The notes beneath the pieces are model-generated. The model saw nothing but the letters and a program-made list of their open reading frames with translations. It ran no database searches and had not been told where the DNA came from. A program made the position numbers and the translations under genes. DNA of 64,000 nt from Octopus vulgaris (lineage: Eukaryota): positions 167,710,001-167,774,000 of the forward strand of contig OX597815.1 in NCBI GenBank assembly GCA_951406725.2. The letters are read 5' to 3'. The first letter of the stretch is position 1. Each line of letters opens with the position of its first letter. Below, one piece after another: positions 5,553 to 62,015 of the stretch.

Positions 5553-6345
5553 TTACAAGAATAACAAATTGCAATCTGACGTGGCATGATCTTAACTATC
5601 CAATTAATTCATCAAAATTATAGCTCTGATCTCGTAGGAGGCCAGCAAAAGATACAACCTCAGAGCTCCATCTTTTTTTTACACCAGTCAACCACTTGCT
5701 TTCGTCCGTTTTTTGTTCACAGTTCATTTCTTTATGTTGCTCATCACTCTACCCCTTGTGGTTTGCACAGACCTTTTAATATAGAAAATATTGTTTGGTT
5801 TTGTTTTGATTGTGTTTTTGCTTCTCCTTTAGATGTATGTTGCATTTCAAACAAATATAACATGGACCTTTACCATTTACTCTTTACATAACTACCACCA
5901 CACCCTTTTTTTACCAATAGCAGATTTAACCTTAACCCGCAAATATTACAAACACAAACGTTATCACGACAACCAGGCTCTACAGGAAGACACCAGTCTT
6001 ACTCACTAACACCACCAACACAAACATGACCACCTCAAACATGACCGCAACCCTGATATGAGTCTCATGACTTCTTATAAGATGTATCAGGCTTTCATGC
6101 CGTTGCCAAGTTTTGTTTGCTTCTACTGTCCACAACACAGCATTTGAAGGTAATATTTTTCTTTTATTAAAGCTTTCTATACTTCTTTCATGAATATGTA
6201 TACCCAATTTTCATACAACGCTGTTAAAAGAATATTGTTTTTTCTTTATATTATGATTTTGAATTCTCTTTATAAAGAATACAAAAGGATAACAATAAAG
6301 GAAACAGACCAAAAATTCTCCTCTTTCTGTCTCATATTCTCATAT

Positions 6346-6439
<94 letters not shown>

Positions 6440-6462
6440 AGTGTGTGTATATATATATATAT
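6346..6462. repeat. compound (TC)n(TA)n(TG)n microsatellite
   Basis: Direct reading. Confidence 0.95.
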
Positions 6463-9319
6463 AACCAAAAAATAAGCAACAAGAATGGATCGGTAGTTTA
6501 GTACAATTGTTTCATACTATAACAATTTATTAAAGCTGCAAATATTACGGCAAATATAATGTTAAGTAATCTTCAGCTAATTTCTTATAGGTTTTCCAAA
6601 CATTCTGGTGCATCTAAGTTAAATACCATATTCATTTGAATTTAAATTGTTTTGCTGAAATTATATATATATATATATATATACCTATCTCTTCTTGTAT
6701 CTCTTTCTCTCCACAGGAACATACAGTGCTTAAATATTCATACACACATAATGTTTGTATGTATGCAACAAAGGAGGAACAGAGTATTCAAAACTTGAGA
6801 GGAATGTTAAAATATTAAGATTTAATACACCCCAGCTTAGAGAACACATATTTTTCCATGAACTTCTTAGCTAAAGGATGTCTTTTGAAGCAAATAACAA
6901 TAAACCATCGCTAGTGATCTGTTCTGAAAGCATATGATAGTGATGTTTTGATCGTAATGTTTCAATGCAAGCCCTATATGAACAACAGTGCGACCATGGA
7001 GAGAGCTCAGTGTCCAAATATTTACTGACTTGTGAAGTGTTCAACAGCCGTATTGCGTGCATGATTTATTCGAATATCAGTCGAGCACATCGGGAAGATC
7101 AGCCCAACCATGATGTTTCAATGAAGAAGAGCAAGCAGCTTTCTTTAGTCTGGTGACGATTGTAGACAGTGTAGTGTGGTAGATACGAATGAATGGACTG
7201 GTAAAGGACTTACCTCTCCTGTCAAGACTTCAGTAATCTGTTTATGTGCAGCTTGGGGATTAAAGGTGAGATATTGCCCTCAGTAAATTTTCTGAAATGT
7301 AGGCCTAAAGCAGCGACTATGACCAAGTTTAATTGACTTGCACCCAATAGATGACTATAAACAGTGGCCGGAAACAGCGAAAGGGTAATTGCTCATTATA
7401 GCCGAGACCATCTATCCTCGCCTACTCAGAACAAATACTCTTTCACAGTTTCCTGTGAAATTGGATTGGGTTTTAGCCATCTCGTTATTGAATCCTAAGA
7501 AACAAATATGTATATAAACATTTTCTATTTATAATGTTTCATATGAGGAGATGCAATGTTTACCTCCTTTCCGTTGCTCTTTAGGTCGCTTAAGAAATTA
7601 TTTTCATAATTGTCGTTGTTGTTGCTGTTGTTATCTAATGCTGGACAGGTCGAACGTGTTTGTTTATTTTTTTCTTCATTCTGCTCCACGGAATAGTATT
7701 CTTCTGAAATTATCATGTACAGATGGCTTTAGAAAGGTTTCAGCCTACTTATATAGAGTTTAGACAAAGGAAAATAAGTTTGCCTACAAACAGAAAATTG
7801 GTTCCGAAATTTCCATGCCACTCCAGTCCGAACGGAAATTGATAATTAACAAAGCAATACAATTCACATACGCACACATACACACGCAAACACACATCAC
7901 ACACAATAGCAATTTAATTGCACAGCAATATATCCTATGCTGAGCACGAACAAATAGACAATACTTAGTAATCAATGTTATAATTTTGAATGTTTGTACA
8001 TGCCTGTGTAGCCACAGAAATAACCAGTATGATGGTGACATTTTACGAAGAATAGTTTGTCTCCACCTGACGAAAATGTATTGTCAGTCTATGTGCCTTA
8101 ATAAAAGAGAAATGAATTTTCTTATGTCTTTAGTCGAACAGGTGAAACAAACTCCCCTCAGAAGTACGATAGGAAGTTGTTTTCTTTCAGCTGTGTAGCA
8201 CTTACGGGATCATCTATTTAATTTTTAGACCGAAAACAGTCGCTAAACAGGTATAGATATTAAGGTACAAGCCCGACCATATACTTGTGCCTCGGCAATT
8301 AGAGTAAACAAATAAAGGTAACTATTAGGAACACTAGCAACCATATTGCTTTCGGATTTACCATTACTTTCGTATTGTTGTATAGGCGGATAATTGATGC
8401 AGAGCTAACGAAGTTTGTAATATGGTTATGATAGCTCAGAATTGAGTTTCGTTTATGAAAGGAAAGTTCATTTCAGTACTTTTGTTCTGGAGAACAGGAA
8501 AACTTAAAGGCGAGAATGTTGCCGTGAGTAACATAAATAGCAACAAAAGCAGTAGTCCCCAGGCTCAAGTACGCCACACATCAATGTACCGACGATAAAG
8601 AGAAAGGTCACCCATGTTTTCAATAGCCGACCAGGAGTCTGATGTACAACTCTCCAAACCAGGCGAACGGTTGATGAGAGGGAGAGATAAAGAAGAATGA
8701 TCAACTGCAGCAGCAACAACAAGAAGCTCTAATTTTAGATCCCCGAGAAGCTGGAGAATACATGATCTCGACCCCAGAAGCCGCAAAATGAGAGCTTCCT
8801 ACCTAGCCAACAGTATCTCTTCATCATCTTGTGACAATGGGGAAACAGTGGAAGCTGAAGATGGGGGGGGAGTCCAGGAAGAAAATGAAGATCTAGCAGA
8901 CAAACGTGAACCCTATCTATAGAGATATGTAAAACCCAATAGAACATCAGTAACAGCGACGACGAAAAAAGGAAAATTTACGGTCGTCTCGAAAGCTGAA
9001 CCAGTAATTCACAACCAAAAGAACCCATATGTGACGCAAAAATATTTAGCTTTCATATATTAATTTTCCAAAGTGAAATAGGGTTGGAATACAGGAGAGA
9101 CACCAGTTATTTATATCTTGATAATAATTATAGTAGTCTCAGCTTGAAGAGTGGCAAACGGAAAAAAAACGTGGGATGCCCTAAGATACCATTCCAAATA
9201 GTTTGTTTCATTTGCCTGTTGAGATTTTATCATACGTCCTACATTTTATGAGAATTTTGAAATTATTATTTTATATAACGTATCGCCCCAATCTGTTTAT
9301 ATCAATACTCAGCTTTGTA

Positions 9320-17311: not shown

Positions 17312-17618
17312 CTTAAGTTATGACAAAGCAATAAAAACAATTTTACATTAATCTGATAGGTTATTCTATACACTTGTTGAATACAAATTTATTATTCTTA
17401 AATAAGAATATTATTTACAGTGACTTCGAAGTTTCGTACAGTTAAGTCATCGACGGGCTGTAATTCGATGATGTCTTAGCTAGCCGAAACTTCGAAACTT
17501 CGAATTGATTGTTAATAATATTCTTATTTAATAATAAAAAATTTTGTTTTCACCAAAAGTATAGAGTAACCCATCAGATTAATGTAAAATTGTTTATATT
17601 AATTTGTCATAACTGAAG
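17312..17618. repeat. diverged ~300-bp palindrome (fold-back element)
   Basis: AGTTATGACAAA..AAACAATTTTACATTAATCTGAT.. is mirrored by ..ATCAGATTAATGTAAAATTGTTT..TTTGTCATAACT. Confidence 0.85.
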
Positions 17619-17805
17619 GCAGCGAGCTGCCAGAATTGTTAACTCGCCGGGCGAAATGCTTAGAGGCGTTTCATCTGTCTTTAGGTTCTGAGTTCAAATT
17701 CCGCTCAAGTCGACTTTGCCTTTCATCCCTTCGGTGTCGATAAAATGAGTACCAGTTGAGCACTGGGGCCGATGTAATTGACTATCCTGCTCCCCTAAAT
17801 TTTAG
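17617..17805 (+). mobile_element. SINE family A copy
   Basis: Head GGCAGCGAGCTGCCAGAATTGTT plus the family core. Confidence 0.85.
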
Positions 17806-17853
17806 ACGATTGTTTTGCTATAACTGAACACAAAAAACATTTACGTATATATA

Positions 17854-17889
<36 letters not shown>

Positions 17890-17925
17890 TGTATGTATGT
17901 ATGTATGTATGTATGTATGTATGTA

Positions 17926-18240
17926 TGTGGAGGCGCAATGGCCTAGTTGTTAGGGCAGTGGACTAGCGGCCGTAGGATCGCGGTTTCGATTTCCATACCG
18001 GGCATTGTGAGTGTTTATTGAGCGAAAACCCCTAAAGCTCCACGAGGCTTCGGTAGGGGATGGTGCCGATCCTTGCTGTACTCTTTCGCCACAACTTTTT
18101 CTCACTCTTTCTTCTGTTGGCCTGCTCGCTTAGCCAGCGGGATGGCATCGTTTGAAGGCTAAAACAATGAGAAGCGCATTGTAACCAGCGATGTGTAGCA
18201 ACATCGGAGAGCCTGGTCGGTCACGGTGATCACGGTGATA
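17926..18240 (+). mobile_element. tRNA-derived SINE family C
   Basis: tRNA-like head GTGGAGGCGCAATGGCCTAGT.GTTAGGGCAG..GGTTTCGATT and tail GGTCGGTCACGGTGATCACGGTGA. Sister copies lie at 25657, 43860, 45611 and 56498. Confidence 0.85.
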
Positions 18241-18649
18241 TATGTATATATATATATATATATGCATATCGTTACACACGCACATACACTTATACACATA
18301 CATATTTAGGTGTGAGTGTGTGTGAGTATATGAGTCTGTGTGTTTTTCTATGTACAAACGAAAGAAAAAGAACTTAACACTACCCTCGGAAGTTTATATT
18401 AACAGTTTGCTCAGACGTGTGTTACAAAATGTTTCAAACGATATGACATTCTGATCATTCGAAGGCCCTGGAACTGAGTGATAAGGACTTTACGAATTCC
18501 GATGAAGTATCTTTAATATCTGGTGGTACGTGAAGTTGAACCTGGGACCACATTATGTATACGTACGAAACGAGAGTCGGAGAAATTCGAAGATGAAGGA
18601 AACAGAACTAGTGTTGTTAGTGTCATTAATTTAATAAATAAACATACTA

Positions 18650-19040
18650 TAGGTGCAGGCATGGCTGTGTAGAAAAAAAGCTTGCTTCCCAATCACATGG
18701 TTCCGGATTCAGCCCCGCGTGGCACCTTGAGCAAGTGTCTTCTACTATAGCCTCGAGCTGATCAAAGACTTGTGAGTGGATTTGGTAGGCGGAAACTGGA
18801 AGAAGCCAGTCATATATAGATATATGTACATATTTGTGTGTGCTTGTCCACACACAATCGCCTAACAACCCATAATGGTATGTTTATGTTCGCCCTAAAC
18901 TAGCGGTTCGGCAAAAGTGACCGATAGAATAAGTACTAGGCTTGCAAAAGAATAAGTGCGAGATCGATTTCTTCGACTAACATCCTTAAGGTGGTGCTCC
19001 AGCATGGCCACAGTCAAATGGCTGAAAGAAGTAAAAAAAA
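18650..19040 (+). mobile_element. SINE family B copy
   Basis: Matches the family B head and tail. Confidence 0.8.
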
Positions 19041-19118
19041 GAATATTCTTATATCGAATGTTTTACCCGAGATTGGGATTTCCTCAGTTTCTTCTAAGCA
19101 GGGGCACACAATAATTAT

Positions 19119-19207
<89 letters not shown>

Positions 19208-19208
19208 C

Positions 19209-19481
19209 TACCCTTAACGTAGTTCTCGGGGATAATCAGCGTGACACAGAGAGTGACAAGGTTGACCCTTTGAAATACAACTACAACTCATTTTTGCCAG
19301 CTGAGTGGACTGGAGCAACGTGAAATAAAGTGTCTTGCTCAAGGACACAACGCGTCGCCGGGAATCGAACTCACAACCTTACGATCATGAGCCGAATGCC
19401 CTAACCACTAAGCCACGCGCCCTCACATTATATATATATATAACGTGCAAATGGCTGAGCATTCCACAGACACGTGTACCC

Positions 19482-19484
<3 letters not shown>
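19209..19484 (-). mobile_element. SINE family D-type copy, apparently permuted, between inverted repeats
   Basis: Minus-strand head GAGGGCGCGTGGCTTAGTGGTTAGGG at ~19400-19426. TACCCTTA occurs at both ends. Confidence 0.75.
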
Positions 19485-19552
<68 letters not shown>

Positions 19553-19838
19553 ATAATTATTGTGTGCCCCTGCTTATAATCAAAATAAGCAGCAAGGATA
19601 TCCATAGGTAATGCAGTACCATCGTTTCATGCGACTCCATTTAACAGAACAATGCAATCATTTCATTACATCAATTTAAAATGTAGAGGAATCTTCAGCT
19701 GCACAAAAAAAAACAAAAAAAAAACGTAGAAATTAATTGAATTAGAAGGACACGTTAGTATAATTTTACCTAAAATCTCCAAGAGGATAAGGAGATAGAC
19801 AAAGAACCTGTTTTACCAACAACATCATAATTGTAACT

Positions 19839-19891
<53 letters not shown>

Positions 19892-20349
19892 ATCGTTAGC
19901 CATTACACACATTTTTTTTACTCTCCTTGTTTTTTCTGTGTATTTTTCTGTAGAAGAGCGTAGGCTCGAAACGTAAGAGACTTTTTTCTACTCCTGAGCG
20001 TTATACTAATACATCTGTTTGTTTTGTGCACCACCTGCCTTCGTTTTTTGTTTTTTTCGTAAACTTTCCTTATATATATATATAAGGAGTGTTTATGAGG
20101 TTTTGGGAATACAAAACACACACAAAAACACACAACAGAACGCATGTTGCTATCTTAGTCTGTAATGAACGCTCAATCTGTTAGGATGTAAAGAAATATG
20201 TCGATTTTAACCCTGAAGAGATCTCTACCTTTTAAATTCATAATGCAATTATAGTTGTAAAATGAAGGAAGGTGGCAAGAAAACGATCGTAGGCGTTGTG
20301 TAATCAACAGTTATGTAAATAAATTGATTTTAATGTAGTCAAACTCTCC

Positions 20350-20591
20350 ATGTTCTTTATATTATATATATATACATATATATATAGATAAATAGATATA
20401 TAGATATATATATACATACATACATACATATATACAAACATACATATATACATATATGCATGCATACAGGCATACATACATATGTATATATACATATATA
20501 TTTATTTATTATACTCATACACACATATACATATATGTGCTGGATATAAATGTGTATGTGTGTATGTGTGTGTGCATATATATACATATAC

Positions 20592-20639
<48 letters not shown>

Positions 20640-20845
20640 GTATATATATATATGTATATATATATGTATATATATGTATATACAGATATATATAAATGTT
20701 TATATATAAAAGATAAGGATAAACAAGTTTATAGGTGGCTATATATATATATATATATATATATATAGCTATAAATGTTTATGTATATATGTATAGATAC
20801 ATATATATATACATATATACGTATATATATAAAAACATTTACAGG

Positions 20846-20929
<84 letters not shown>

Positions 20930-21262
20930 CGTGTGTGTGTGTATGTATATATATATATATATATTTATGTGTGTGTGCTTATGTATATGTATGTATGTAT
21001 TTAAACACGTGCATATTTACGTGCTTGTGTATATGCGTATGTGCGTGTGTGCGTGAGTGTACACAAGCTTAGGAGAAAACAATGGCCGGTGTTAGAAGAT
21101 TTGGTTATACAAGCTGAAGTAAAATCAAATAAAATACAAATGCAAATAAACTGAGTATTTAAATAAATATGCCCACTACTTGAGGGAATGTTTATGCATG
21201 TGTCTAATAAAATATATTACGAGTCTTATACAAACCCTGTGTGTACAAGTACGTGTATATAC

Positions 21263-21306
<44 letters not shown>

Positions 21307-21533
21307 GCGCACATATGTATATCAATATATATATATATATATAAAATAAGGATAACCAAGTATATAGGTGGCTATATATATATATATATATATATACATA
21401 TAGCTATAAATGTTTATATATATATGTATAGATACATATATATTCATATATACGTATATATATATAAACATTTATAGGTATATATATATATGTGTGTGTG
21501 TGTGTGTATGTGTGTGTGTGTGTGTGTGTGTTC

Positions 21534-21567
<34 letters not shown>

Positions 21568-21587
21568 TTATATATCTATATATATAA

Positions 21588-21659
<72 letters not shown>

Positions 21660-21660
21660 C
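20350..21660. repeat. compound TA/TG/TACA microsatellite field with an internal duplication
   Basis: Direct reading. Confidence 0.85.
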
Positions 21661-22961
21661 AATGTATGTACAGGTGTCTCAATGCGTTTTCTTATATGAC
21701 AAAGTCCCAGCGCTAGTGTATGTGCGTATTGATATGTGTTAGTTTACGTGTGTATAGGGATTATTATTTTTAACAGCGCGTGTTTCATAGTTTATTGACA
21801 TATATATATGTGTTGTGAGTATTGATGTTACATGTGACTCTGCTGTATGTGCATATGTGCGTATGTTATAAATGGGTGTTTATTTATTTATTAGTCGGTG
21901 TGTGCATGCGATATGTTTGTGTTTCTCCGAATGCGCGTGTGGATGTATATGAACGCACCAAACACATACACACAATATACAAACATACTCATTGTGAGTA
22001 TCGTTGTGTGTGTGTATATATATATATATATATGAGTACGTGTGTGTATGTGTTTGAGCATTGTGTGAGGATTTTCATCAGTAGGACAATTATGACACTA
22101 TCGCTAACGCCGACTCGTCACCATACTGAGCCAAGCTACACCCTTCCTCACTGTACATTCTCCTCCCCATTACACTACATGATATTACACATCACACCAT
22201 ATCACTAAACTAGACCACGCCATACCGTAAAGATATGAAACCATGTCGTATTTCCAGTAGGTTAAACCAAGCAAATCGAAGCGAACGGTAACTTTCTGAA
22301 TGTCACGTCCGACGACAAATGTCATGGGATTTTTGTAGTTGTGTAGCTCGCTTCATGATGAGTTATGTCTTATGCAGCCTGCTTCTCGAAAAATGCTACC
22401 CATGTGCGCTCTATACGGTTGTTTGACCCGCAAGAAATAGCAGCCAAATCTCTCTGGCATCAGTGCGTAACAGGAGGAAGATTTGGCTGCTATTTTATAT
22501 ATAGTGATTTTGGCAGTGTTGCCACCATGCTGAAACTACTACTTGGACACATCTTTTTTCCCAAGCTATTTCTAGAGAAAGGCGAAGGCCTTCTGGGTTT
22601 TGTAGAATCCAAATTAATTTGATTAATGTTAGTCTTGATAGGGTTCAATTTCAGCTGCTGCAAGTGTACCTACAAGAAGGACACGCTCGTCATTAATGAA
22701 CGAAAGGTGTGACGATATTCCAAGTTATTATAGTGGCAGAAAACAAAGTAGAGTGGTCAGACAGCAAAGGTAAAATCATGAACAAGGTGCTGCAGAGTGG
22801 CTTTGAGTGATTTTATACCAATCAGACGACTGGCCTTTTTCTGAATGTTGTCGATAAAGTTCATATGCAGCAGCAACAGTACTTTGACATTAGTTCTCCA
22901 ATGTGGGTTACATATGAGCTAAGTAGAGTGTCAGAATTTTTGAGAGTCAAAGTATTATGAG

Positions 22962-23195
22962 TGGAGGCGCGTGGCTTAGTGGTTAGGGTGTCAGCATCAT
23001 GATCATAAGATTGTGGTTTCGGTTCCTGGACCAGGCGACGCGTTGTGTTCTTGAGCAAAACATTTCATTTCACGTTGCTCCAGTCCACTCAGCTGGCAAA
23101 AATGAGTGACGCTGCGATGGAGTGGCGTTCCATCCAGCTAGGGAACACATACGCCATTGAAACCGGGAAACAGGGGCCACGTTTATTATTATTTT
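22962..23195 (+). mobile_element. tRNA-derived SINE family D
   Basis: GTGGAGGCGCGTGGCTTAGTGGTTAGGGTGTCAGC..TGTGTTCTTGAGCAA; near-copy at 42191. Confidence 0.85.
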
Positions 23196-23806
23196 TTTGT
23201 AAAGTATTATATGGTCTTCAAAGGAATGACCAATATTTTGGATGCGGTTTTAGCTACATTGAGGATGATTTTTTCGCCAGAAGTGATTCTCAACGATAGT
23301 GAAGCACAAAAATTTGAGTGGCCATGGGAGATCAAAACATGAGTGTACATATATAATGTGAGATATAGTGCAATCCTGTTTTCTCGAGTTGAGCTGTGCC
23401 AGCGAGTTTTGCTTTGGAAAAGGGCAAGATTGCTGTATTCTAACTGGGGATGTTTTCGAAGTTTTCTGTTCATATAATCTGTGTAGTTTGGATGAGTGGA
23501 TAATGCATTATTGGAGAATGTTATGAAGAAATCATGGATAGCGTTATCCATCAACAAGAACGTTGCTGGATGCTGCGACAAGTATATCATTCATGTACAG
23601 CAGGTAGAGAGTGAAGCATAGCAAGTCTACACTAACTCACACTTATTCTTAATACTTATTCTTTATACTTTCATTGTACAAATATCCTATACCACATCAA
23701 AAATTAATTGAGGTATTTAATACAAGACAGGACTGATTCTGAGCTTTCAATTGGAAATTTAAGGAATAAGTGTAACTATTCCAATACCCAATAACACACG
23801 CACACA

Positions 23807-23844
<38 letters not shown>

Positions 23845-24192
23845 CGCGCGCACTTGTATGTGTGTGTGATTATGTATATGTGTGTATATATATGTATGTA
23901 AGTATGTATGTGCGTGTATGTGCGTGTGCATTTGTGTATGTGTGTGTGCATCGTATACATATGTGCATATGCATAATTTTATGTATACGTGTGCAATTTA
24001 CATATATATGTTAATATATTTATATATGTATATTCCTATTTATACGTATATATATATGCATATATATATATATATGTATATATACATATTACATATATTG
24101 AGTATATATATATATATATATATACTTATGTATATTACATATAATGTATATATATATGATACATACGTACATATGTATATATACTACATATA

Positions 24193-24238
<46 letters not shown>

Positions 24239-24589
24239 CATATGTACACACAGAGAGACACACACCCACGCACATATACATGCTAGCAATTCAGATTTCT
24301 TCACTCATCTCCCCACCATTTCCCTCACTTTCTACCTGTTAGCTACCTTCATTTCTAAACAGAGCTCTCTTGAACATTCCTCCTACCTCTTACCCTACCC
24401 CTCTCGGCAATGTGCTGCTTAGCTAGTCCCACTAGAGTCATGATGTCTCCCCAAAACTGACATCCTCTGACCCCGGAGCACAGATGGGATTACGATGTGA
24501 CGCCTGCTTGTATCCATCCGAGTTTAAGGTTTTATCATCGACATCGTCTTCATAATCATCAGTATAACCAAAAGCCACCCTCCAGCGCC

Positions 24590-24665
24590 TCCATCGCCAC
24601 CACCACCACCACCACCGCCACCATCACCACCATCATCTTCTTCGTCGGCATCATCGTCGCCGACG

Positions 24666-24700
<35 letters not shown>

Positions 24701-24960
24701 CTCACCACCGCCACCACTGTCAGCATCATCATTGTTGTCGCCACCGTCTTCATCGCAATCGAATTATCATTTTTTATATTCATGTATGAATTATCATCAC
24801 AACCATCGTCATGCCCTCGTCTTCCACCTCCTCCTTATCATCATCATCATCGACGACTACAAATACAGGTCGTCATTCCCAACATCATCATTATTATCAT
24901 CATCATCATCATCATCACCCCCACCAACAACAACAAAAGCAACAGCAGCAGAGCCAGCTT
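24590..24960. repeat. (CAT/CAC/CAA)n trinucleotide low-complexity region
   Basis: Direct reading. Confidence 0.85.
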
Positions 24961-25489
24961 TATCATCGTCGTCAGTAAGCAAGCAGGTCAGGTTAAGTCA
25001 GTCAGCTTATATTACGTTATTGTGTAGTTGTCGGTAGATCGACTGACATCTTGCCAGCTGTTAGACACAACTAGGTGATAAGCGTTGATAGTCAAACAGA
25101 TATGTTGAATGAGATGGCAAAGATAAAAAAAAAACTTGAAGGTAAGCCTCCACCACTAACAACAACAATAATAAATAGCATAAATGTTTATAGTATGTCT
25201 GCCTGTACGTCTACTTTCTCCGCTGTTACGCCCTTATCATTTCACTCTTCCTCATTTCGGTGATATTGTTGTTGTTGTTGTTCTTGTTGTTAATCAGTAA
25301 GCTTTCGCTGATTGAATGACCACCATTTAAAATCCACAGGAAACATACTTGACACTTCTTTCTACCTGTTTGAAGGTATCCAGACGCAAGAAATTTCTCG
25401 TCCAGGGGAGGTAATACTGTTGCGCATTGTAAATGTTTTCCTATCTTTGAATTTTTTCTTTTGTCTTTTTTAACTTTTATATATATATG

Positions 25490-25556
<67 letters not shown>

Positions 25557-25561
25557 ATATA

Positions 25562-25598
<37 letters not shown>

Positions 25599-25617
25599 GT
25601 GTGTATATATATATGTG

Positions 25618-25656
<39 letters not shown>

Positions 25657-25912
25657 GTGGAGGTGCAATGGCCCAGTGGTTAGGGCAGCGGACTCGTGGC
25701 TGTAGGATCGCGGTTTCGATTTCCAGACCAGGCGTTGGGAGTGTTTATTGAGCGAAAACACATAATGCTCTATGTGGCGATCCCTGTTGTACTCTCTCAT
25801 CTTTCTTCTGTTGGCCTGCTCGCTTAGCCAGCGGAGTGGTGTCATTTGAAGGCTAAAACAATGCGAAGCGCATTGTGACCAGCAACATCTGAAAGCTTGG
25901 TCGGTCACGGTG
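25657..25912 (+). mobile_element. SINE family C copy
   Basis: Matches 17926-18240. Confidence 0.85.
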
Positions 25913-26009
25913 ATATATATGTACATATATATATATGTATATATATGTATATATACGTTTAAATATTTGTTGTGCAAGATTTTTTATGTGAAGTCGTGTG
26001 TTGAAACAG

Positions 26010-27603
26010 ATATTGTTATATTTCGGAATGGTCATATTGCCAGTTTAGCCAATAAAAACACACGCACTATATATTTGGTGTTATTTTGCTTCAGTGATAT
26101 TTATTTTTTACATTAATCTTAATCTTATTTCGGCCAAAGTTCTTTCGTCACACTCCTGTGACCGCATCAGTGGTCCTTTGTTTTCTTCTCACTTACTTGT
26201 GTCTCTCCTTACTAACCGTCAGCCATTTTGTATTTCTATTGTATGTCTTCATTTGCGCATGCTTATATCTCTATGTGCGTCTATGTTTATTTAGTGTGTG
26301 GGGGGGGGGATGTCTGTAATATTTGTATCTTCTGGTTATATACATTCTTGTAATTTGTATTTTGTTTTTGTTGTTGTTGCTTTTGTTCTAATTTTGTTCA
26401 TGTGTTTACATCCACCCATTATTATCATTACATATGCTTGTATGTATGTATAACAACAATATTAGTAATAATAATAATAAATCTAATCGAAAAAAAATAA
26501 ATAAATTTTAAAAAAAAAAAATATATAAAAAATAAAAAAAAAAAAAGAAAAGAATATACATATACATATATATATATACATACATATACATATACATATA
26601 CATATATATATATACATACATATACACATACATATACATATATATGCACATATACACACATATATACACATATAGATATTCATTTCTATTTCTTTAATTA
26701 CCTGTGTATTTATTATGTTTGCAGGATCCACTATTGTCATATGTTGTGGTGTGCGCTATTGCTCCATTCTAGTTTTCTATTCAGGCTAGGTTTATTTTCT
26801 ATTATATGTGTAGCTTCTGTAATTTGTCTAATTGTTGCATCTGTTCTATGTGTTGACAATATCTTAATCTCTATGTTATTGATTGATCCCCCGTGTTCTT
26901 GTTCGGCGTGTTGGTACAGAATCGATGAGCTTTTACCTTCCTTGAGTTGTCTCCAATGTTCATTCACCCGCTCACCAATGCTTCTTGCAGTTTCCCCTAC
27001 GTATGTTACTGTCTTGTTACTGCATCGTCCCTCTATACATCTTATACTATAGACCACATTTCTGGCTTTACAGTTCGTTTGTGGGCTAAATCTACATACA
27101 GTGCAATAGTTATCCGTACAGAGAGTTCTACTAAAAGGATAGCTTCTACCAATTATAGATCTGATAGGGTTGCCTGGCTTTTCAACAACCTTAATTCTTA
27201 GTTTAAGTTTATCTAGGGTCCTTCTAAAGCGGTACGCTAGTTCACCTCCAGGGGTGGTGTCAACGAACATGACACTCTGGTATTTATGGCTATCATACCA
27301 AGAGTTGGCCTTCCCTATTTTCTTTTTTGTCCTTTCTATAGTGTTCCATGACTTGTTCCTATAGAGTGGGCAAATCCCATTCCTATCATTACATAATATA
27401 TTATCAAATTTCTTCATGGCTCCTTTGTATACTCTGATCCTTTCTTTATGGCTGTAACCTGAGAACTGCATGCGGTGAATGAAATACTGTATGTGTCTCT
27501 TTAATTCTGTAGGCTCGCACATGCGTGACACATTTCTCATTATTCTGACGAGGTCTGCCATCAAAATATTGAATTTGGCATTGCCCGCAATGGCTGTGTT
27601 CCG
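26010..27603 (-). repeat. inverted copy of the PLE 3' end (RT thumb, GIY-YIG, 3' UTR)
   Basis: The translation RNTAIAGNAKF...WSNSAHHNI* is identical to the C-terminus of the plus-strand ORF. Differences were seen only in homopolymer tracts. Confidence 0.95.
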
Positions 27604-30325
27604 CAACAGGGGGATTGACAGGGACCAACAGACAGACATAAAACCCAACACTAATATAAACAACACATGTACCAGAAACAGGAACAATGAATATATCACT
27701 AGCGATGATAGTAATAATGGCAATGGTAGGAATAAAGGTAATAACAATAATAGTGGTAGTAGTAGTGGTGATGGTAACAGTAGAAGTAGTAATGAGGATA
27801 GTAGTGATAGTTGTGGTGGTAATAGGAATACTAGTAGTAGTGGTAATGGTGATAATAATAATAGGAAGGCTGATGTTGGAAACAGTAACGATAATGAAGA
27901 TAACCCTAGAGAGACCATTGACATGTATACCCATCCCTTTGACACTCAATTCTTCAACGTATGCGACAAAACTTACTGCATGAACCGAATTTATCCAACA
28001 ACATTACCCTTCAACAAAAGGGTATACATCCCAAGACGTACTAATGACCACATGGAAGCACAGTTCACTATAGCTAGGACCAAACTTAGACAGATTTTAG
28101 GTTTATACATTAAGAGACGGAGACAGAATAAGACAGATGCCCAACAACTAGGGATTAAACCTGCATGTGGCCTACAGAAGCTCATTCAGCGCACGAGGAA
28201 CGGAGAGGTGATATGCCTTCCCACGGATAAGTCAGGCAGGATGTCAATAGACAGCTTACCGAACTACATCCAGGCAATGCAACCTCATATCGCCAATACA
28301 AAAGTAACAACTGTACAGGCGCATGAGGAGAGAGAAAAGGTCCTCAATGCCCACATGATGATGTGGACAATTGTTCTGGGACCTCAGAAACGTACTGCAA
28401 AGAATTTCCAAGCCTGGAACAATGATATCCCGGCACTGTATGGACTTCGCAAGGACCATAAAGGTTTTACTGACCCTATAGCAGGACCACCAACAAGACC
28501 AGTCTGTGGAGCGAATATCGCTAGCAATTACAGAATCTCCTACTTCCTCTCAATGATCATACGCCCTATAATCAGGATGTCACCTGATGTGTGTGACAGC
28601 ACAGAAGATCTCCTAAGCAGGATCAGTGACTGTAACAAAACTTGTGACTTGACAGGATGTATAGTAGGTAGCATGGATGTGGTATCCCTATACCCATCGA
28701 TTGACGTAGATTTTGCAGTGGAGAAGTGCGTGGAGATGATCAACGAGAGCCAGGTGGAGTTCTGTAATGTCGACACAGAAGAACTGGGCCTCCTACTTAG
28801 ACTGACATATAATAGTGAATACTTAGATAAACATAATCTTAGTAGTTTCTGCCCCAGTAGATGTTTAAGAGGTAGACCGCCTACAATTACTTCTATGGCT
28901 AGGAAGACACATATAGAAAGATGGCGCGGATGGACCAGAGCCATACGGAGCCCCGCAAATGTCCATCAGGTAAAGAAAATGATCGCACATGCACTAGGAG
29001 CTAGTATAAGAGTTACCCTAAAAGGCCACACATTTAAATTTAATAATAAAATATATGCCCAGGACGTGGGGGCAGCCATCGGTGTTAGTATCGCTGGTGA
29101 TGTGGCCAACCTCTTCATGGTATGGTGGGACAGAAGGCTTAAAGAATGCCTACTGCAGAAATCCATACTCGTAAACATGTACTCTCGCTATGTTGATGAT
29201 ATCAATATAGTAGTAAAGGCACCCCCACAAGAGGGTACTGTTGATATAGTAATAGAAACTAATACTATGGAGAGCATCCAGCAAATAGCTAACTCCATCC
29301 ACCAGAGTATTAAGGTCACAATAGACTACCCCACTAAACACCCCAACCATAGACTACCAGTACTAGACACTGAACTCTGGCTAGAAATTGTGAAAAATAA
29401 AACCCAAATCCTTCATTCATACTATGCAAAACCTATGGCCTCAAAATACCTGATCCACCGGAACACAGCCATTGCGGGCAATGCCAAATTCAATATTTTG
29501 ATGGCAGACCTCGTCAGAATAATGAGAAATGTGTCACGCATGTGCGAGCCTACAGAATTAAAGAGACACATACAGTATTTCATTCACCGCATGCAGTTCT
29601 CAGGTTACAGCCATAAAGAAAGGATCAGAGTATACAAAGGAGCCATGAAGAAATTTGATAATATATTATGTAATGATAGGAATGGGATTTGCCCACTCTA
29701 TAGGAACAAGTCATGGAACACTATAGAAAGGACAAAAAAGAAAATAGGGAAGGCCAACTCTTGGTATGATAGCCATAAATACCAGAGTGTCATGTTCGTT
29801 GACACCACCCCTGGAGGTGAACTAGCGTACCGCTTTAGAAGGACCCTAGATAAACTTAAACTAAGAATTAAGGTTGTTGAAAAGCCAGGCAACCCTATCA
29901 GATCTATAATTGGTAGAAGCTATCCTTTTAGTAGAACTCTCTGTACGGATAACTATTGCACTGTATGTAGATTTAGCCCACAAACGAACTGTAAAGCCAG
30001 AAATGTGGTCTATAGTATAAGATGTATAGAGGGACGATGCAGTAACAAGACAGTAACATACGTAGGGGAAACTGCAAGAAGCATTGGTGAGCGGGTGAAT
30101 GAACATTGGAGACAACTCAAGGAAGGTAAAAGCTCATCGATTCTGTACCAACACGCCGAACAAGAACACGGGGGATCAATCAATAACATAGAGATTAAGA
30201 TATTGTCAACACATAGAACAGATGCAACAATTAGACAAATTACAGAAGCTACACATATAATAGAAAATAAACCTAGCCTGAATAGAAAACTAGAATGGAG
30301 CAATAGCGCACACCACAACATATGA
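27479..30325 (+). CDS. PLE reverse transcriptase - GIY-YIG endonuclease polyprotein (first ~42 codons come from the antisense inverted arm; native part starts at 27604)
   Basis: RT motifs TDKSGR, LYGLRKDHK, RPVCGA, GSMDVVSLYPSI, QDVGAAIG..ANLFMVWWD, RYVDD, LPVLD. Cys linker C-x4-C-x2-C. GIY-YIG VVYSIRCIEGRC..YVGET..R..EH..QH...H..EA..LN. No internal stops. Confidence 0.93.
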   Translation: MKYCMCLFNSVGSHMRDTFLIILTRSAIKILNLALPAMAVFRNRGIDRDQQTDIKPNTNINNTCTRNRNNEYITSDDSNNGNGRNKGNNNNSGSSSGDGNSRSSNEDSSDSCGGNRNTSSSGNGDNNNRKADVGNSNDNEDNPRETIDMYTHPFDTQFFNVCDKTYCMNRIYPTTLPFNKRVYIPRRTNDHMEAQFTIARTKLRQILGLYIKRRRQNKTDAQQLGIKPACGLQKLIQRTRNGEVICLPTDKSGRMSIDSLPNYIQAMQPHIANTKVTTVQAHEEREKVLNAHMMMWTIVLGPQKRTAKNFQAWNNDIPALYGLRKDHKGFTDPIAGPPTRPVCGANIASNYRISYFLSMIIRPIIRMSPDVCDSTEDLLSRISDCNKTCDLTGCIVGSMDVVSLYPSIDVDFAVEKCVEMINESQVEFCNVDTEELGLLLRLTYNSEYLDKHNLSSFCPSRCLRGRPPTITSMARKTHIERWRGWTRAIRSPANVHQVKKMIAHALGASIRVTLKGHTFKFNNKIYAQDVGAAIGVSIAGDVANLFMVWWDRRLKECLLQKSILVNMYSRYVDDINIVVKAPPQEGTVDIVIETNTMESIQQIANSIHQSIKVTIDYPTKHPNHRLPVLDTELWLEIVKNKTQILHSYYAKPMASKYLIHRNTAIAGNAKFNILMADLVRIMRNVSRMCEPTELKRHIQYFIHRMQFSGYSHKERIRVYKGAMKKFDNILCNDRNGICPLYRNKSWNTIERTKKKIGKANSWYDSHKYQSVMFVDTTPGGELAYRFRRTLDKLKLRIKVVEKPGNPIRSIIGRSYPFSRTLCTDNYCTVCRFSPQTNCKARNVVYSIRCIEGRCSNKTVTYVGETARSIGERVNEHWRQLKEGKSSSILYQHAEQEHGGSINNIEIKILSTHRTDATIRQITEATHIIENKPSLNRKLEWSNSAHHNI

Positions 30326-31084
30326 CAATAGTGGATCCTGCAAACATAATAAATACACAGGTAATTAAAGAAATAGAAATGAATATCTATATGTGTATAT
30401 ATGTGTGTATATGTGCATATATATGTATATGTATGTGTATATGTATGTATATATATATATGTATATGTATATGTATATGTATGTATATATATATATGTAT
30501 ATGTATATTCTTTTTTTTTTTTTTTTTTATATTTTTTTTTTTTATTTTTTTTTTTTTTTTCGATTAGATTTATTATTATTATTACTAATATTGTTGTTAT
30601 ACATACATACAAGCATATGTAATGATAATAATGGGTGGATGTAAACACATGAACAAAATTAGAACAAAAGCAACAACAACAAAAACAAAATACAAATTAC
30701 AAGAATGTATATAACCAGAAGATACAAATATTACAGACATCCCCCCCACACACTAAATAAACATAGACGCACATAGAGATATAAGCATGCGCAAATGAAG
30801 ACATACAATAGAAATACAAAATGGCTGACGGTTAGTAAGGAGAGACACAAGTAAGTGAGAAGAAAACAAAGGACCACTGATGCGGTCACAGGAGTGTGAC
30901 GAAAGAACTTTGGCCGAAATAAGATTAAGATTAATGTAAAAAATAAATATCACTGAAGCAAAATAACACCAAATATATAGTGCGTGTGTTTTTATTGGCT
31001 AAACTGGCAATATGACCATTCCGAAATATAACAATATGTATATATATATATATATAAATATATATGTACATATATATATATATA

Positions 31085-31250
31085 TATATATGTCGTCGGA
31101 CAGTTTTGATAGTCCGACGAACGGGAACGTGAAACTCCGAGTAACAGCTTTTGTTAAATTTCTGATGCTTTTAAATACAGCATATTACTCTACTTCTGGT
31201 ATTTGAGTACTCTGTTTTCCACCTAGTTTCACATTTATGTGTTTACTCCG
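31085..31250 (+). mobile_element. short hammerhead-like-motif element in (TA)n
   Basis: Terminal hairpin TCGTCGGAC..GTCCGACGA overlaps CCGACGA-ACG(GGAA)CGT-GAAACTC(C)GAGTA. Confidence 0.45.
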
Positions 31251-31279
31251 GTATATATATATATATATATATACATATA

Positions 31280-31920
31280 TGGATATGTGGGCACAGGACG
31301 TCACGCAATGTGTACAACGAAAAATACGAAGCATGAGTACATGGAACATCAACTATTATTTCGAACAGCGAAAGACATAAATAGAAAACAAAACAAACAA
31401 CATAAAGAACGACCCTTCATCACTTTTGGGCTGCTTTTCTAGTCCTGTATTTCGAACATTTAACAACAATATAAGCTTTCGATAAAACAGTTGCTCTTGC
31501 AAAGCAGATTAAATAAAATTTGGGATTTTGCGGAGGGTCAAAATTGGTAACACAAACAGGACAGTGAAAACAAACAGGAAGGGCTGCTAAGCCTAAACGG
31601 GGTTGTGATGGCGAACGCGTAAATCGAGCTTGGACAGGAGACGAACAAGAACACGTTTTCCTTGTTCTAGCTACAACGGAGAGAAATAAAGAAACACAAG
31701 TTAGAAGAAAGAAAGATGGTCGATGGTCACGTAGGAGCCACGTGAGCAAGGGAGGAGGAGTGAGGGAGAGAGAGTGACAGAGTAATAGGATAGAATAGCG
31801 GGAGAAGAGGTGGTAAAATAATAAGAGAGAGGAGAGAAAAACGAAAGAGTAAAAAGATATTATAGAGTGTATATCAGATTTATTAAAATAAAACTTGCTC
31901 TGAAGAGGATGTGTGGCGTT
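31280..31920. mobile_element. interspersed repeat, homologous to 48135-48720
   Basis: Shared ACATAAAGAA.GACCCTTCATCA..TTTCGA.CATT..AGTTGCTC..AAATAAAATTT.GGAT and GATGGTCACG motifs. The antisense strand carries a TGATGAAG motif. Confidence 0.65.
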
Positions 31921-31999
31921 CAATCATATAATAATATAAATAATATATATATGCATATATACATACGTATATGTACATACTTTCATCTATACGTGTATA

Positions 32000-34631: not shown

Positions 34632-35035
34632 AAAGAATTTTTTGCGTAATAACATAAAAAAAACCAAGGCTGTGTAGATATGCGCTAATATCTACACACC
34701 CTTGGTTTTTTTCTCTTATTACGCAAAAAATTCCTACATACACACGCTGACATAGAACCAACGTTGAACCCTTTATTTACAATATTAACGAATCTGGAAC
34801 TAAACTATGGTCTGTCTATAGCACTTATTCAGCATTACCTGACACAATTATCTCTTATATATATATATATACAATGAGCTTCTTTCAGTTTCCGTCTACC
34901 AAATCCACTCACAAGGCTTTGGTCGGCCCGAGGCTATTGTAGAAGACACTTGCCGAAGGTGCCACGCAGTAGAACTGAACCCAGAACCATGTGGTTGGTA
35001 AGCAAGCTACTTACCACACAGCCACTCCTGTGCCT
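34340..35035 (-). mobile_element. SINE family B copy interrupted in its microsatellite by a ~230-bp insert
   Basis: SINE halves lie at 34340-34530 and 34872-35035. Confidence 0.85.
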
Positions 35036-43679: not shown

Positions 43680-43728
43680 AAAAAGAAGTTTGAAAACGCC
43701 ACTATATAAGATAAATTTTAATTTTCTT

Positions 43729-43783
43729 AGAAATTTTACATGTTTCGGTTCTTCATGAAAAAACGAACCTTATCAAAATATCT
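43729..43783 (-). ncRNA. minimal type-I hammerhead ribozyme motif (U3/A8 variant)
   Basis: Minus strand reads UUGAUAA-GGUUC(13 nt)GAACC-GAAAC-AU-GUA, with a palindromic stem III. Confidence 0.6.
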
Positions 43784-43859
43784 TAAAAAGTTAAGTGTAA
43801 TAAAAAAGTTCATAATTGTTTCTTACAGGTCTGAACAGGATCCACGTGGTGGTTTTTGT

Positions 43860-44145
43860 GGGTAGTAAGCATAATAGCTGTCTTATGTGTTCGAATTCCC
43901 AGACCGAGTGTTGTCAGTGTTTATTGAGCGAAAACACCTAAAGCTCCAGGAGGCTCCGGCAGGGGATGGTGGCGATCACTGCTGTACTCTTTCGCCACGA
44001 ATTTCTCTCACTCTTTCTTCTGTTGGCCTGCTCGCTTAGCCAGCGGGGTGGTGTCATTTGAAGGCTAAAACAATGCGAAGCGCATTGTGACCACCGATGT
44101 GTAGCAACATCTGATAGCCTGGTCGGTCACGGTGATCACGGTGAT
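43860..44145 (+). mobile_element. SINE family C copy (degenerate head)
   Basis: Body matches 17990-18240. Confidence 0.8.
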
Positions 44146-44170
44146 ATATATATATATATATATATATATA

Positions 44171-44536
44171 GGGGTAAAATATGAAAATTCAACGAAAATG
44201 CACATTGGAAATAACAAAAGGCTATTTATGACAGGTAACGACACATATATACATTTAGATGGACTGAGGTAGTAATAAGAGTCATAAAAGTCATTATTAT
44301 GAGATGATTATAAGATGATAATAATATAGTAAGAGAACAAAGCGAACCATGATTTCGGCAAAAAGCTATTCATCGTTTTGAAAACACCGCATCTTATAAT
44401 CATCTCATAATAATGACTTTTATGACTCTTATTACTACCTCAGTCCATCTAAATGTATATATTTGTCGTTACCTGTCATAAATAGCCTTTTGTTATTTCC
44501 AATGTGCATTTTCGTTGACTTTTCATATTTTACCCC
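44171..44536. repeat. fold-back element with 147-bp inverted arms in (TA)n
   Basis: Arms 44171-44317 and 44390-44536 show ~2 mismatches around a 72-bp spacer. Confidence 0.93.
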
Positions 44537-61810: not shown

Positions 61811-61944
61811 ATAGACAGACAGATAGATAGACAAACATATAGATAGACAGGCGGATACACAGGCAGAAAGACAGGCAGAAAGACAGACACCCCAAATTAG
61901 TTTCTACTTCTACTTCACATTTGAATTTATTCTTTTATATAAAT

Positions 61945-62015
61945 CAATTCGTTTTGCAAGACTCCTGGTGCGAAATCGTATATTGAAACAGATATTGTTG
62001 TATTTCGGGATGGTC
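61945..62015 (-). repeat. short homologue of the PLE 3' terminus
   Basis: TGCAAGA..TTGAAACAGATATTGTT.TATTTCGG.ATGGTC is shared with 25973-26033. Confidence 0.65.

What the first reader, a model, noticed from the sequence alone, without database searches (positions are those of the whole stretch)
17312..31037. Candidate system: autonomous Naiad-like PLE plus small hammerhead-bearing fold-back passengers
Seen: an inverted-arm architecture recurs at several scales (17312-17618, 19095-19576, 26010-31037, 31093-31119, 34635-34733, 44171-44536), mostly in or beside microsatellites. Minimal hammerhead-like cores recur at ~17465, 18499, 19948, 30877, 31113, 43729(-) and 44342(-). Established: PLEs carry minimal hammerheads, often integrate with inverted truncated copies, and are the proposed mobilisers of non-coding retrozymes. 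Inference: this genome hosts diverse non-coding, ribozyme-bearing elements mobilised by PLE RT/GIY-YIG into microsatellites, seeding long dsRNA hairpins.
Basis: partly seen in the sequence, partly recalled or inferred. Interest (0 to 1): 0.8.

Follow-up and report, generated by a model that had tools for sequence, protein, structure and literature searches.

The report
Octopus Penelope retrotransposon with hammerhead stubs
A young, front-truncated Penelope-type jumping gene with a mirror-image copy of its tail and a small hammerhead ribozyme motif sits among short hammerhead-bearing fragments that are likely dead tail-end stubs of other Penelope-type families rather than passengers of this element, a known pattern, although its reverse transcriptase has an unusually long extra segment.

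Summary
The inverted arms are real. 26010-31037 is a very young Penelope-like element (PLE) of an Octopus-like genome. It is not a Naiad: RT comes first, then a C-terminal GIY-YIG with a Nematis-type linker. It is not autonomous as it stands: about 200 N-terminal residues and the upstream pLTR are missing. The head-to-head inverted copy, one-sided 53-nt tail and (TA)n flanks are published PLE features. Its hammerhead (30877) is real and lies in a true pLTR, just upstream of the ORF start. Of the other six hammerheads, three hold up (43776, 19948, 31114), one is weak (44373), two are unsupported (17465, 18499); an extra one lies at 6576. Motif counts alone barely exceed shuffles, but motif plus downstream (TA)n does (6 vs 1.2; 0/500). 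The small units share no sequence with the PLE and are not tandem; 31114 matches published Hydra-clade PLE hammerheads. They are best read as 5'-truncated ends of other PLE families, not retrozyme passengers. One fold-back (19099-19572) looks MITE-like. What remains unusual: a conserved ~70-residue insertion in the RT fingers and an A9C ribozyme core.

The parts
25957..26009 (-). 53-nt PLE 'tail', present only at the left end, abutting (TA)n; it extends the pLTR-encoded ORF start from about 8 to about 26 codons
   Evidence: other copies end at (TA)n at both the tail and no-tail positions (loose ends in run X11)
26010..27603 (-). inverted 5'-truncated copy (head-to-head) of 29459-31037, with a second copy of the hammerhead at 26176-26132
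27604..30325 (+). uninterrupted but 5'-truncated PLE ORF: RT (DKS, YVDD), thumb, short Cys linker, C-terminal GIY-YIG endonuclease with CCHH; 98% identical to an Octopus vulgaris protein
   Evidence: model pLDDT 87.7; best structural matches are telomerase RTs, with I-TevI GIY-YIG at model residues 693-792
28676..29071 (+). RT motif A to motif B' interval of 131 residues, i.e. about 70 extra residues at the position of the telomerase insertion-in-fingers
   Evidence: 129-138 in 92 of 93 homologues with both motifs, of 120 fetched; about 60-63 in canonical PLEs, counted by me from Fig. S1 of PMC8557442
29942..30322 (+). Nematis-type short linker (C-x4-CxxC-x7-C) and GIY-YIG endonuclease
   Evidence: compared by eye with Fig. 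S2 of PMC8557442
30326..31037 (+). 3' non-coding region and pLTR: internal microsatellite and T tract, hammerhead, then the ORF's start codon at 31012
30871..30915 (+). minimal type I hammerhead: core with C at position 9, bulged G, 5-bp stem II, 4-nt loop III, predicted cut after 30910
   Evidence: family variation
31093..31251 (+). 159-bp (TA)n-flanked unit: 27-nt palindrome at the 5' end, Hydra-clade-type hammerhead (core 31114, U4C), 108 nt to (TA)n; likely 3' stub of a Hydra-type PLE
   Evidence: 17-nt identity with the Hydra-2_Ajap hammerhead
19887..20070 (+). 184-bp (TA)n-flanked unit with a minimal hammerhead (core 19948, A6U, so likely inactive)
43680..43888 (-). unit ending in (TA)n with the best-scoring hammerhead (core 43776, U3-A8 covariation, palindromic loop III)
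6462..6663 (-).
44171..44536 (-). (TA)n-flanked fold-back, 147-bp arms; decayed hammerhead-like motif (core 44373) in the 72-nt spacer, same polarity as in the PLE; a TA-target MITE is not excluded
17312..17618 (.). old fold-back (77.5% self-match) with a hammerhead-like motif at its centre by eye only; no (TA)n flanks, no clear target duplication
18490..18590 (+). hammerhead-like motif by eye only (core 18499); not supported by either test
19099..19572 (.). terminal-inverted-repeat element beginning CAGGGG, arms extended by (GATA)n, SINE-derived interior, no hammerhead; flanking 8-mers match 6 of 8; MITE-like, likely not part of the PLE set
34635..34733 (.). short microsatellite-flanked hairpin, no hammerhead; origin undetermined
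61940..62015 (-). old (80%) fragment of the same PLE end including the tail

Best explanation
26010-31037 is a recent, 5'-truncated insertion of an RT-then-endonuclease Penelope-like element with an inverted partial copy, a one-sided tail and a hammerhead motif in its pLTR, and the small hammerhead-bearing units are likely the 150-370 bp 3' stubs left by aborted insertions of other PLE families. Inferred working, by analogy with studied PLEs: a complete partial-tandem master copy elsewhere is transcribed. Its GIY-YIG domain nicks (TA)n. The RT primes on the nick and starts inside the pLTR/ORF-start RNA at one of two sites, giving ends with or without the tail. Synthesis usually stops early, so most copies keep little more than the pLTR with its hammerhead. 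A second, oppositely oriented synthesis at the same site builds the mirror arm, with a different turn point each time. The hammerhead would cleave only weakly and as a dimer, and may be dispensable for insertion, which would let core variants (A9C, U4C, A6U) spread or decay. Shown here: anatomy, truncation, pLTR identity, family conservation of the hammerhead, high copy number of the 3' end, and copy-specific inversion points. Inferred: the enzymatic steps and the parentage of most stubs.
For: Domain order and motifs. The pLTR carries the ORF start: the peptide from 26035(-) is the best of 1204 Met-start peptides in the window against an N-terminal profile of 8 relatives (E 0.017), and in 4 of the 10 related loci tested the ORF N-terminus begins 73-154 nt after the hammerhead core (E 1.6e-30 to 7.5e-4). 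Frequent variants in codons 4 and 6 of that start are synonymous. Relatives: of 12 distinct loci with the ORF end and at least 180 nt beyond it, 6 have a descriptor hit (5 downstream, 1 in the upstream repeat), 4 more show a decayed motif by eye, and 2 show none. In 8 of these, 84.5% of stem cells pair and 7 of 9 pairs change on both sides (sequences were picked for the structure, so this leans positive). L004 begins with an inverted copy of its own hammerhead region; 11,970 contigs of run X1 lie on the 3' end, with summed depth up to 2.3 million against 39-94 for the listed single pieces; 3 of the 10 listed joints are strand inversions, each at a different place and in one contig; no place where many molecules begin or end; depth falls gradually, about tenfold, toward the 5' side in X5, X10 and X11; loose ends of (TA)n occur at both tail and no-tail positions. 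Within the hammerhead the 4 variable sites are position 9 (C to A, 31%), loop II, N17 (U to C, 77%) and one G-C to G-U change. Hammerhead plus downstream (TA)n is enriched. The 31114 motif equals the 3' half of a Hydra-clade hammerhead, and Hydra PLEs occur in Octopus and insert in (TA)n. Literature: inverted 5'-truncated copy and tail (PMC8557442); head-to-head repeats, junction palindromes and pLTR holding the first codons (PMC3846280); minimal hammerheads mostly as single motifs from truncated PLEs, and as opposite-strand pairs 100-700 bp apart (PMC4209133); two internal RT starts explain the tail, and hammerhead cleavage is not needed in vitro (PMC11167929).
Against: No parent element was recovered for any small unit: no genome is held, and reads were laid only on the PLE end. 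The 5' boundary of the high-copy 3' segment could not be read (26348-26465 skipped as repeat), so a discrete non-autonomous derivative is not excluded; in X1 depth stays high up to that point. Variable-site density inside the hammerhead (4 of 45) is not lower than outside (16 of 346), and no two-sided stem change was seen within the octopus family. The independent model finds only 30877/26170 and 43776. None of the 8 motifs folds better than shuffles (z from -0.96 to +1.58). Several small units are (TA)n-flanked on both sides and of similar size, which fixed-length families would also give. Summed contig depth is not a copy number, as the tool itself warns.
Confidence: 0.75

Rival explanations
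1. One reading: the small units are independent non-autonomous, ribozyme-dependent elements (retrozyme-like) mobilised in trans by PLE proteins, this one included.
For: Four units are compact and (TA)n-flanked on both sides. Non-autonomous PLE derivatives are published (bioRxiv 10.64898/2026.07.22.740005; PMC7229834). The PLE's own 3' end is very high-copy in run X1 and its 5' limit was unreadable.
Against: No homology to this PLE's pLTR, whereas published retrozymes match their PLE's pLTR and a studied PLE needs its own ORF-start RNA. No tandem arrays of these units, which define animal retrozymes. Cores are mostly mutated. Hydra-type signature at 31114. Inversion points are copy-specific.
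Confidence: 0.13
2. The fold-backs are ordinary MITEs of DNA transposons, and hammerhead-like motifs in them are incidental.
For: 19099-19572 starts with CAGGGG and has flanking 8-mers matching 6 of 8; that this is the hAT pattern is recalled, not tested. 44171-44536 and 34635-34733 are TA-flanked, as Tc1/mariner MITEs are (recalled). A Tc3-type transposase fragment lies at 2440-2892.
Against: The 8-mers match equally well as inverted repeats, so a duplication is not proven. The large fold-back encodes RT-EN. 44171 has a hammerhead-like motif with PLE polarity in its spacer. No clear duplication at 17312 or 46313. None of the small fold-backs has a second copy in the window.
Confidence: 0.07
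3. Most hammerhead-like motifs outside the PLE are chance matches in AT-rich DNA.
For: The relaxed count is no higher than shuffles (13 vs 10.6; 9 vs 9.6). No hammerhead family is among the 150 listed of 306 Rfam matches. This is probably true for 17465 and 18499.
Against: Joint enrichment with downstream (TA)n (0 of 500). Independent model hit at 43776. 17-nt identity of 31114 to a published PLE hammerhead.
Confidence: 0.04
4. The 1.6-kb inverted arms are an assembly fold-back artefact.
For: The arms are identical apart from homopolymer tracts; the junction was not tested with reads.
Against: One-sided element-encoded tail, separate (TA)n flanks and unrelated neighbours on both sides. The same layout occurs in L004 and in the literature.
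Confidence: 0.01

Closest known systems
Canonical EN+ Penelope-like elements, Nematis/Neptune type (Craig et al. 2021, PMC8557442; Arkhipova et al. 2013, PMC3846280)
   Same: Single ORF with telomerase-like RT then GIY-YIG with CCHH and a Cys linker; pLTR holding a minimal hammerhead and the first codons; inverted 5'-truncated copy; one-sided tail; (TA)n target.
   Different: Motif A to B' spacing of 131 residues against about 60-63; DKS instead of DKG; tail 53 nt against 30-40; hammerhead position 9 is C; clade not placed on a tree.
Hydra-clade PLEs (PMC8557442, File S2)
   Same: The 31114 hammerhead has the same 4-bp-plus-1 stem III and cleavage context, 17 nt identical to Hydra-2_Ajap; about 100 nt to a (TA)n end; Hydra-1_Obim exists in Octopus. 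6576, 44373 and 17457 have similar stem III by eye.
   Different: U4C core; no ORF attached; no parent found. The large PLE itself is not Hydra (it has CCHH and DKS).
Naiad PLEs
   Same: (TA)n targeting, inverted copies, CCHH and Cys motifs, some insertion between RT motifs A and B'.
   Different: Naiads have an N-terminal endonuclease, CxC, DKA, an insertion of about 20 residues and no canonical hammerhead.
Animal non-LTR retrozymes (PMC7229834; bioRxiv 10.64898/2026.07.22.740005)
   Same: Short, non-coding, low-GC units with a type I hammerhead, linked to PLEs.
   Different: Retrozymes are head-to-tail tandem repeats with mostly canonical hammerheads and abundant circular RNA; here the units are single or inverted, minimal and mostly mutated.
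Telomerase RT insertion-in-fingers (IFD)
   Same: Same position between motifs A and B' and comparable length (about 118 residues in human TERT, counted from Fig. S1); telomerases are the top structural matches of the whole model.
   Different: The insertion does not superimpose on TERT IFDs in the domain search (Z 5.7 or less, rmsd 10-15 A for the telomerases with long insertions); homology not shown.

Membership tests
Penelope-like element (EN+) | telomerase-like RT and GIY-YIG endonuclease in one ORF | tested here: met
Penelope-like element (EN+) | pLTR containing a minimal type I hammerhead and the ORF start | tested here: met
Penelope-like element (EN+) | inverted 5'-truncated copy and optional one-sided tail | tested here: met
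Penelope-like element (EN+) | this copy complete (full ORF plus upstream pLTR), i.e. autonomous | tested here: not met
   about 200 N-terminal residues missing; no direct pLTR upstream
Naiad | GIY-YIG N-terminal to RT | tested here: not met
   endonuclease at model residues 693-792, after the RT
Naiad | DKA motif | tested here: not met
   DKS here and in 61 of 88 T/S-D-K matches among the fetched homologues, DKA in 3
Naiad | no canonical hammerhead | tested here: not met
   hammerhead present here and in relatives
Nematis | short Cys linker before GIY-YIG, CCHH present | tested here: met
   7 residues between CxxC and the next Cys; short in Nematis rows, long in Neptune rows of Fig. S2 (by eye)
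Nematis | no insertion in the fingers | tested here: not met
   131 residues vs about 63 in the C. remanei row
Nematis | RT falls in the Nematis clade on a tree | not testable with these tools
   no reference Nematis/Neptune sequences were available to the tree tools
Neptune | long Cys linker | tested here: not met
Hydra clade (large element) | CCHH absent, DKT, length under 3 kb | tested here: not met
Hydra clade (unit 31093-31251) | Hydra-type hammerhead about 100 nt from a (TA)n end | tested here: met
Hydra clade (unit 31093-31251) | attached Hydra-type ORF in longer copies | not testable with these tools
   no genome held
Non-LTR retrozyme (small units) | head-to-tail tandem repeats each with a hammerhead | tested here: not met
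   no such array among 112 tandem-repeat rows; no second copy in the window; only 64 kb seen
Non-LTR retrozyme (small units) | self-cleavage and circular RNA | not testable with these tools
   needs an assay
Minimal type I hammerhead (30877) | conserved core, stems I and II, palindromic loop III, NUH site | tested here: inconclusive
   core differs at position 9; loop III only partly palindromic; stems met; model E 8.5e-5; activity untested
MITE (19099-19572) | terminal inverted repeats with a fixed-length target duplication | tested here: inconclusive
   flanking 8-mers match 6 of 8 as direct and equally as inverted repeats; single copy
TERT-type IFD | structural homology of the insertion to the telomerase IFD | tested here: inconclusive
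   position and length fit; no convincing superposition

The most novel reading that the evidence does not exclude
The large element belongs to an undescribed lineage of PLEs, widespread in environmental (ENA, JGI) assemblies, that joins a C-terminal Nematis-type endonuclease to an RT with a conserved, folded, telomerase-sized insertion in the fingers. That combination breaks the published rule that C-terminal-endonuclease PLEs lack such an insertion. Its pLTR hammerhead tolerates A9C (also in relative L003), and its 3' end has amplified massively in Octopus.
Probability: 0.4. Interest if true: 0.5.

Novelty: new variant of a known kind. Interest (0 to 1): 0.3.

Why it matters
The proposed system is not new. 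PLEs with minimal hammerheads, inverted truncated copies and scattered hammerhead stubs are published, and so is the PLE origin of retrozymes. The window is a clear cephalopod example, and a warning that hammerhead stubs should not be called retrozymes or passengers without tandem structure or fixed ends. The residual value is the element itself. It has an open RT-EN frame, and relatives with full-length ORFs exist. A 70-residue finger insertion in a C-terminal-endonuclease PLE would bear on how often the telomerase-type insertion arose and what it does in template handling. A high-copy family that segregates A9 and C9 hammerheads offers a natural test of whether PLE hammerheads need to cleave at all.

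Tried and rejected
Own genome: none held, so no genome-wide scan or family consensus. Rfam scan: 306 matches, the 150 listed are microsatellite-driven miRNA and similar hits, no hammerhead among them; 156 not shown. A 24-nt pattern from the 31114 hammerhead found nothing in viral contigs. Genome contigs gave 2 weak Streptomyces matches (E 1e-4, 2e-4), dropped as irrelevant. No RNA holder is on record for the ORF; run X10 is only guessed to be RNA, so expression is undetermined. NCBIfam and PDB sequence searches gave only weak bacterial RT hits. Pfam gave RVT_1 below cut-off and no GIY-YIG hit for the PLE ORF. Single-strand folding does not separate any of 8 motifs from shuffles. The first hammerhead alignment was mis-anchored and discarded; L001 and L030 were left out of the second because of deletions near the core. 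A broad N-terminal profile of 24 homologues did not list the window's pLTR peptide in its top 12; only the profile of 8 closer sequences did. The idea that the ATG inside the hammerhead core starts the ORF was dropped (stop after 19 codons). The domain-only fold search gave no IFD superposition. Four short window motifs searched and two of the four stem III motifs had no match in the Craig et al. supplement; a third matched only unrelated coding sequence. Earlier-findings searches by place and by sequence were empty. Literature: 10 searches returned no paper on octopus hammerhead elements or on a C-terminal-endonuclease PLE clade with this insertion. Lunse et al. (RNA Biol 14:1499), Arkhipova 2006 and Repbase were not available and may describe the A9C/U4C variants or this lineage. 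The figures and supplements of PMC4209133 and the supplements of the 2026 preprint were not seen either.


Full report
Setting. The window is microsatellite- and SINE-rich animal DNA. The long ORF at 27479-30325 is 98% identical to a protein annotated in Octopus vulgaris, so the host is that species or a close relative. No genome is held. Family-level evidence therefore comes from 37 metagenome loci of relatives and from contigs of four public runs laid on the element's end.

The large element. 26010-27603 is an inverted copy of 29459-31037, joined head-to-head to the unique part at 27603/27604. The arms are identical over 930 coding bases and differ only in or at homopolymer tracts, so the insertion is very young. 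Both ends abut (TA)n, and the left end has 53 extra bases. The ORF is open but starts inside a low-complexity stretch and lacks about 200 N-terminal residues present in full-length homologues; there is no upstream direct repeat. The domain order is RT, thumb, short Cys linker, GIY-YIG with CCHH. The model (pLDDT 87.7) matches telomerase RTs best and I-TevI at its C-terminus. Craig et al. (PMC8557442; passages and parts of the supplement seen) define Naiads by an N-terminal endonuclease, DKA and no canonical hammerhead; all three fail here. The linker length resembles Nematis rather than Neptune. So this is neither a Naiad nor an autonomous copy.

Its 3' end is a true pLTR. The hammerhead at 30871-30915 is found by a covariance model built from eight relatives and no window sequence (E 8.5e-5). 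A start codon follows 135 nt after the core. With the tail it encodes about 26 residues, which rank first of 1204 Met-start peptides in the window against an N-terminal profile of 8 close relatives (E 0.017); a broader profile of 24 did not list it in its top 12. In 4 of 10 related loci the ORF start likewise lies 73-154 nt after the core. This is the arrangement described by Arkhipova et al. (PMC3846280, passages). Frangieh et al. (PMC11167929, passages) explain the tail by two internal RT start sites. Of 12 distinct relatives with enough downstream DNA, 6 have a descriptor hit, 4 a decayed motif by eye and 2 none. In the 8 aligned, 7 of 9 pairs change on both sides, with the caveat that I selected them for the structure.

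The family in public runs. Run X1 lays 11,970 contigs on the last 390 bases, with summed depth 25,000-60,000 times that of the listed single pieces. The tool warns that this is no copy number, but it shows a very abundant repeat. Depth declines gradually toward the 5' side in three runs, and no place collects many ends. Three of ten listed joints are strand inversions at three different positions, each in one contig. Copies end in (TA)n with or without the tail. This is what 5' truncation with insertion-specific inversion predicts. The 5' limit of the abundant segment could not be read. Inside the hammerhead four sites vary: position 9 (C to A, 31% of depth), loop II, N17 (U to C, 77%) and one stem I pair (G-C to G-U). 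The C9 core is thus a family trait, also seen in relative L003 and unchanged in contigs of two other organism labels. Variable sites are not rarer inside (4 of 45) than outside (16 of 346), so constraint is not shown statistically.

The small units. A structural descriptor supports 43776(-), 19948, 31114 and a new one at 6576(-), weakly supports 44373(-), and does not find 17465 or 18499. The independent model finds only 43776 (E 0.017), and folding energies separate none from shuffles. The overall count is near chance (13 vs 10.6; 135 of 500 shuffles as high). Hits with (TA)5+ within 200 nt downstream are not (6 vs 1.21; 0 of 500, microsatellites held in place). Descriptor and cut-offs were set after seeing the candidates. 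The polarity and distance (38-180 nt) are those of the PLE's own end. The units share no sequence with the PLE end or with each other and form no tandem arrays. The 31114 motif is identical over 17 nt to the hammerhead of Hydra-2_Ajap, and Hydra-clade PLEs are known from Octopus and target (TA)n. Its 5' palindrome is of the kind described at PLE inversion junctions. Cervera and de la Pena (PMC4209133, first two of four parts read) already report thousands of single minimal hammerheads attributed to truncated PLEs, opposite-strand pairs 100-700 bp apart, and the U3-A8 core. U4C is known from a viroid (PMC3088659, passages). Of the remaining fold-backs, 19099-19572 has no hammerhead and looks MITE-like, though its duplication is ambiguous; 34635-34733 has none and is unexplained.

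Mechanism. Most likely (0.75): master PLE copies of several families nick (TA)n, prime reverse transcription inside their pLTR, usually stop early and often add an inverted arm. This leaves hammerhead-bearing stubs and fold-backs, and the window's large element is one longer product of the same process. The enzymology is inferred from other PLEs. The passenger reading (0.13) is not excluded for the doubly (TA)n-flanked units. It lacks the two marks of published retrozymes: tandem structure and homology to the partner's pLTR (PMC7229834, passages; bioRxiv 10.64898/2026.07.22.740005, three of five parts read, supplements not seen). Long dsRNA would form only on read-through transcription, for which there is no evidence either way. 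Two earlier notes of this scan on shark windows reached the same reading; they are not independent support.

What is unusual. The distance from RT motif A to motif B' is 131 residues, and 129-138 in 92 of the 93 homologues where both motifs were found (of 120 fetched). I count about 60-63 for Penelope, Nematis and Neptune, about 87 for a Naiad and about 118 for human TERT in Fig. S1 of Craig et al.. That paper states that canonical C-terminal-endonuclease PLEs lack the insertion in the fingers, and a short Cys-rich insert at this place was noted in two rotifer families. The segment folds confidently but does not superimpose on telomerase IFDs, so homology is open. Ten literature searches did not return a description of such a lineage, but Repbase, Arkhipova 2006 and Lunse et al. 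were not available, and no tree with reference clades could be built. Other papers seen as passages only: PMC8967140, PMC6765202, PMC6962438.

Verdict. Observation partly confirmed; interpretation partly supported. The system is a known PLE pattern, with the clade and autonomy mis-called and no evidence for passengers. The element is a variant worth placing on a tree. Interest 0.3.

Noticed in passing
window 28676-29071: About 70 extra residues between RT motifs A and B', conserved in 92 of 93 scorable homologues and confidently folded; not expected in C-terminal-endonuclease PLEs.
   Followed up: partly
window 29459-30380: Runs under 7 different organism labels hold 81-93% of the sampled words of this ORF stretch: either very close species or recent spread between species. 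Not resolved.
   Followed up: no
window 6462-6663 (-): Additional (TA)n-flanked unit with an intact-core, long-stem-II hammerhead.
   Followed up: partly
window 19209-19484: The interior of the TIR element is a SINE-related segment bounded by an exact 8-bp direct repeat (19209 and 19477), with a short piece placed ahead of the SINE head on the minus strand; it may be circularly permuted, which I did not test.
   Followed up: partly
   Followed up: partly
window 31385-31781 and 48221-48645: Two diverged (76-80%) copies of another repeat with only the first half of a hammerhead core on the minus strand; a similar half core ends at (TA)n near 31900-31930.
   Followed up: no
window 54937-54986 (-): Descriptor hit (score 6.5, A6U core, 6-bp stem I) not near (TA)n; unresolved.
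   Followed up: no
window 59650-61896 (-): Broken non-LTR retrotransposon RT (Pfam RVT_1, E 1e-20).
   Followed up: no
window 2440-2892 (-): Tc3-type transposase fragment (Pfam PF01498, below cut-off).
   Followed up: no
window 27604-27920: The Asn/Ser/Gly-rich stretch at the truncated N-terminus recalls the Asn-rich inserts described in rotifer PLEs (PMC3846280); protein P0001 also begins inside it.
   Followed up: no
L030:2132; window 17465: The same swapped first two core letters occur in a PLE relative and in the 17312 fold-back; decay or a variant.
   Followed up: no
L001:493-1165 and 5610-6053: A relative with a 936-bp direct terminal repeat containing 105-bp tandem units, i.e. a partial-tandem PLE.
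   Followed up: no
window 52513-52702: 5.6 copies of a 34-bp unit resembling part of a local SINE; no hammerhead.
   Followed up: no
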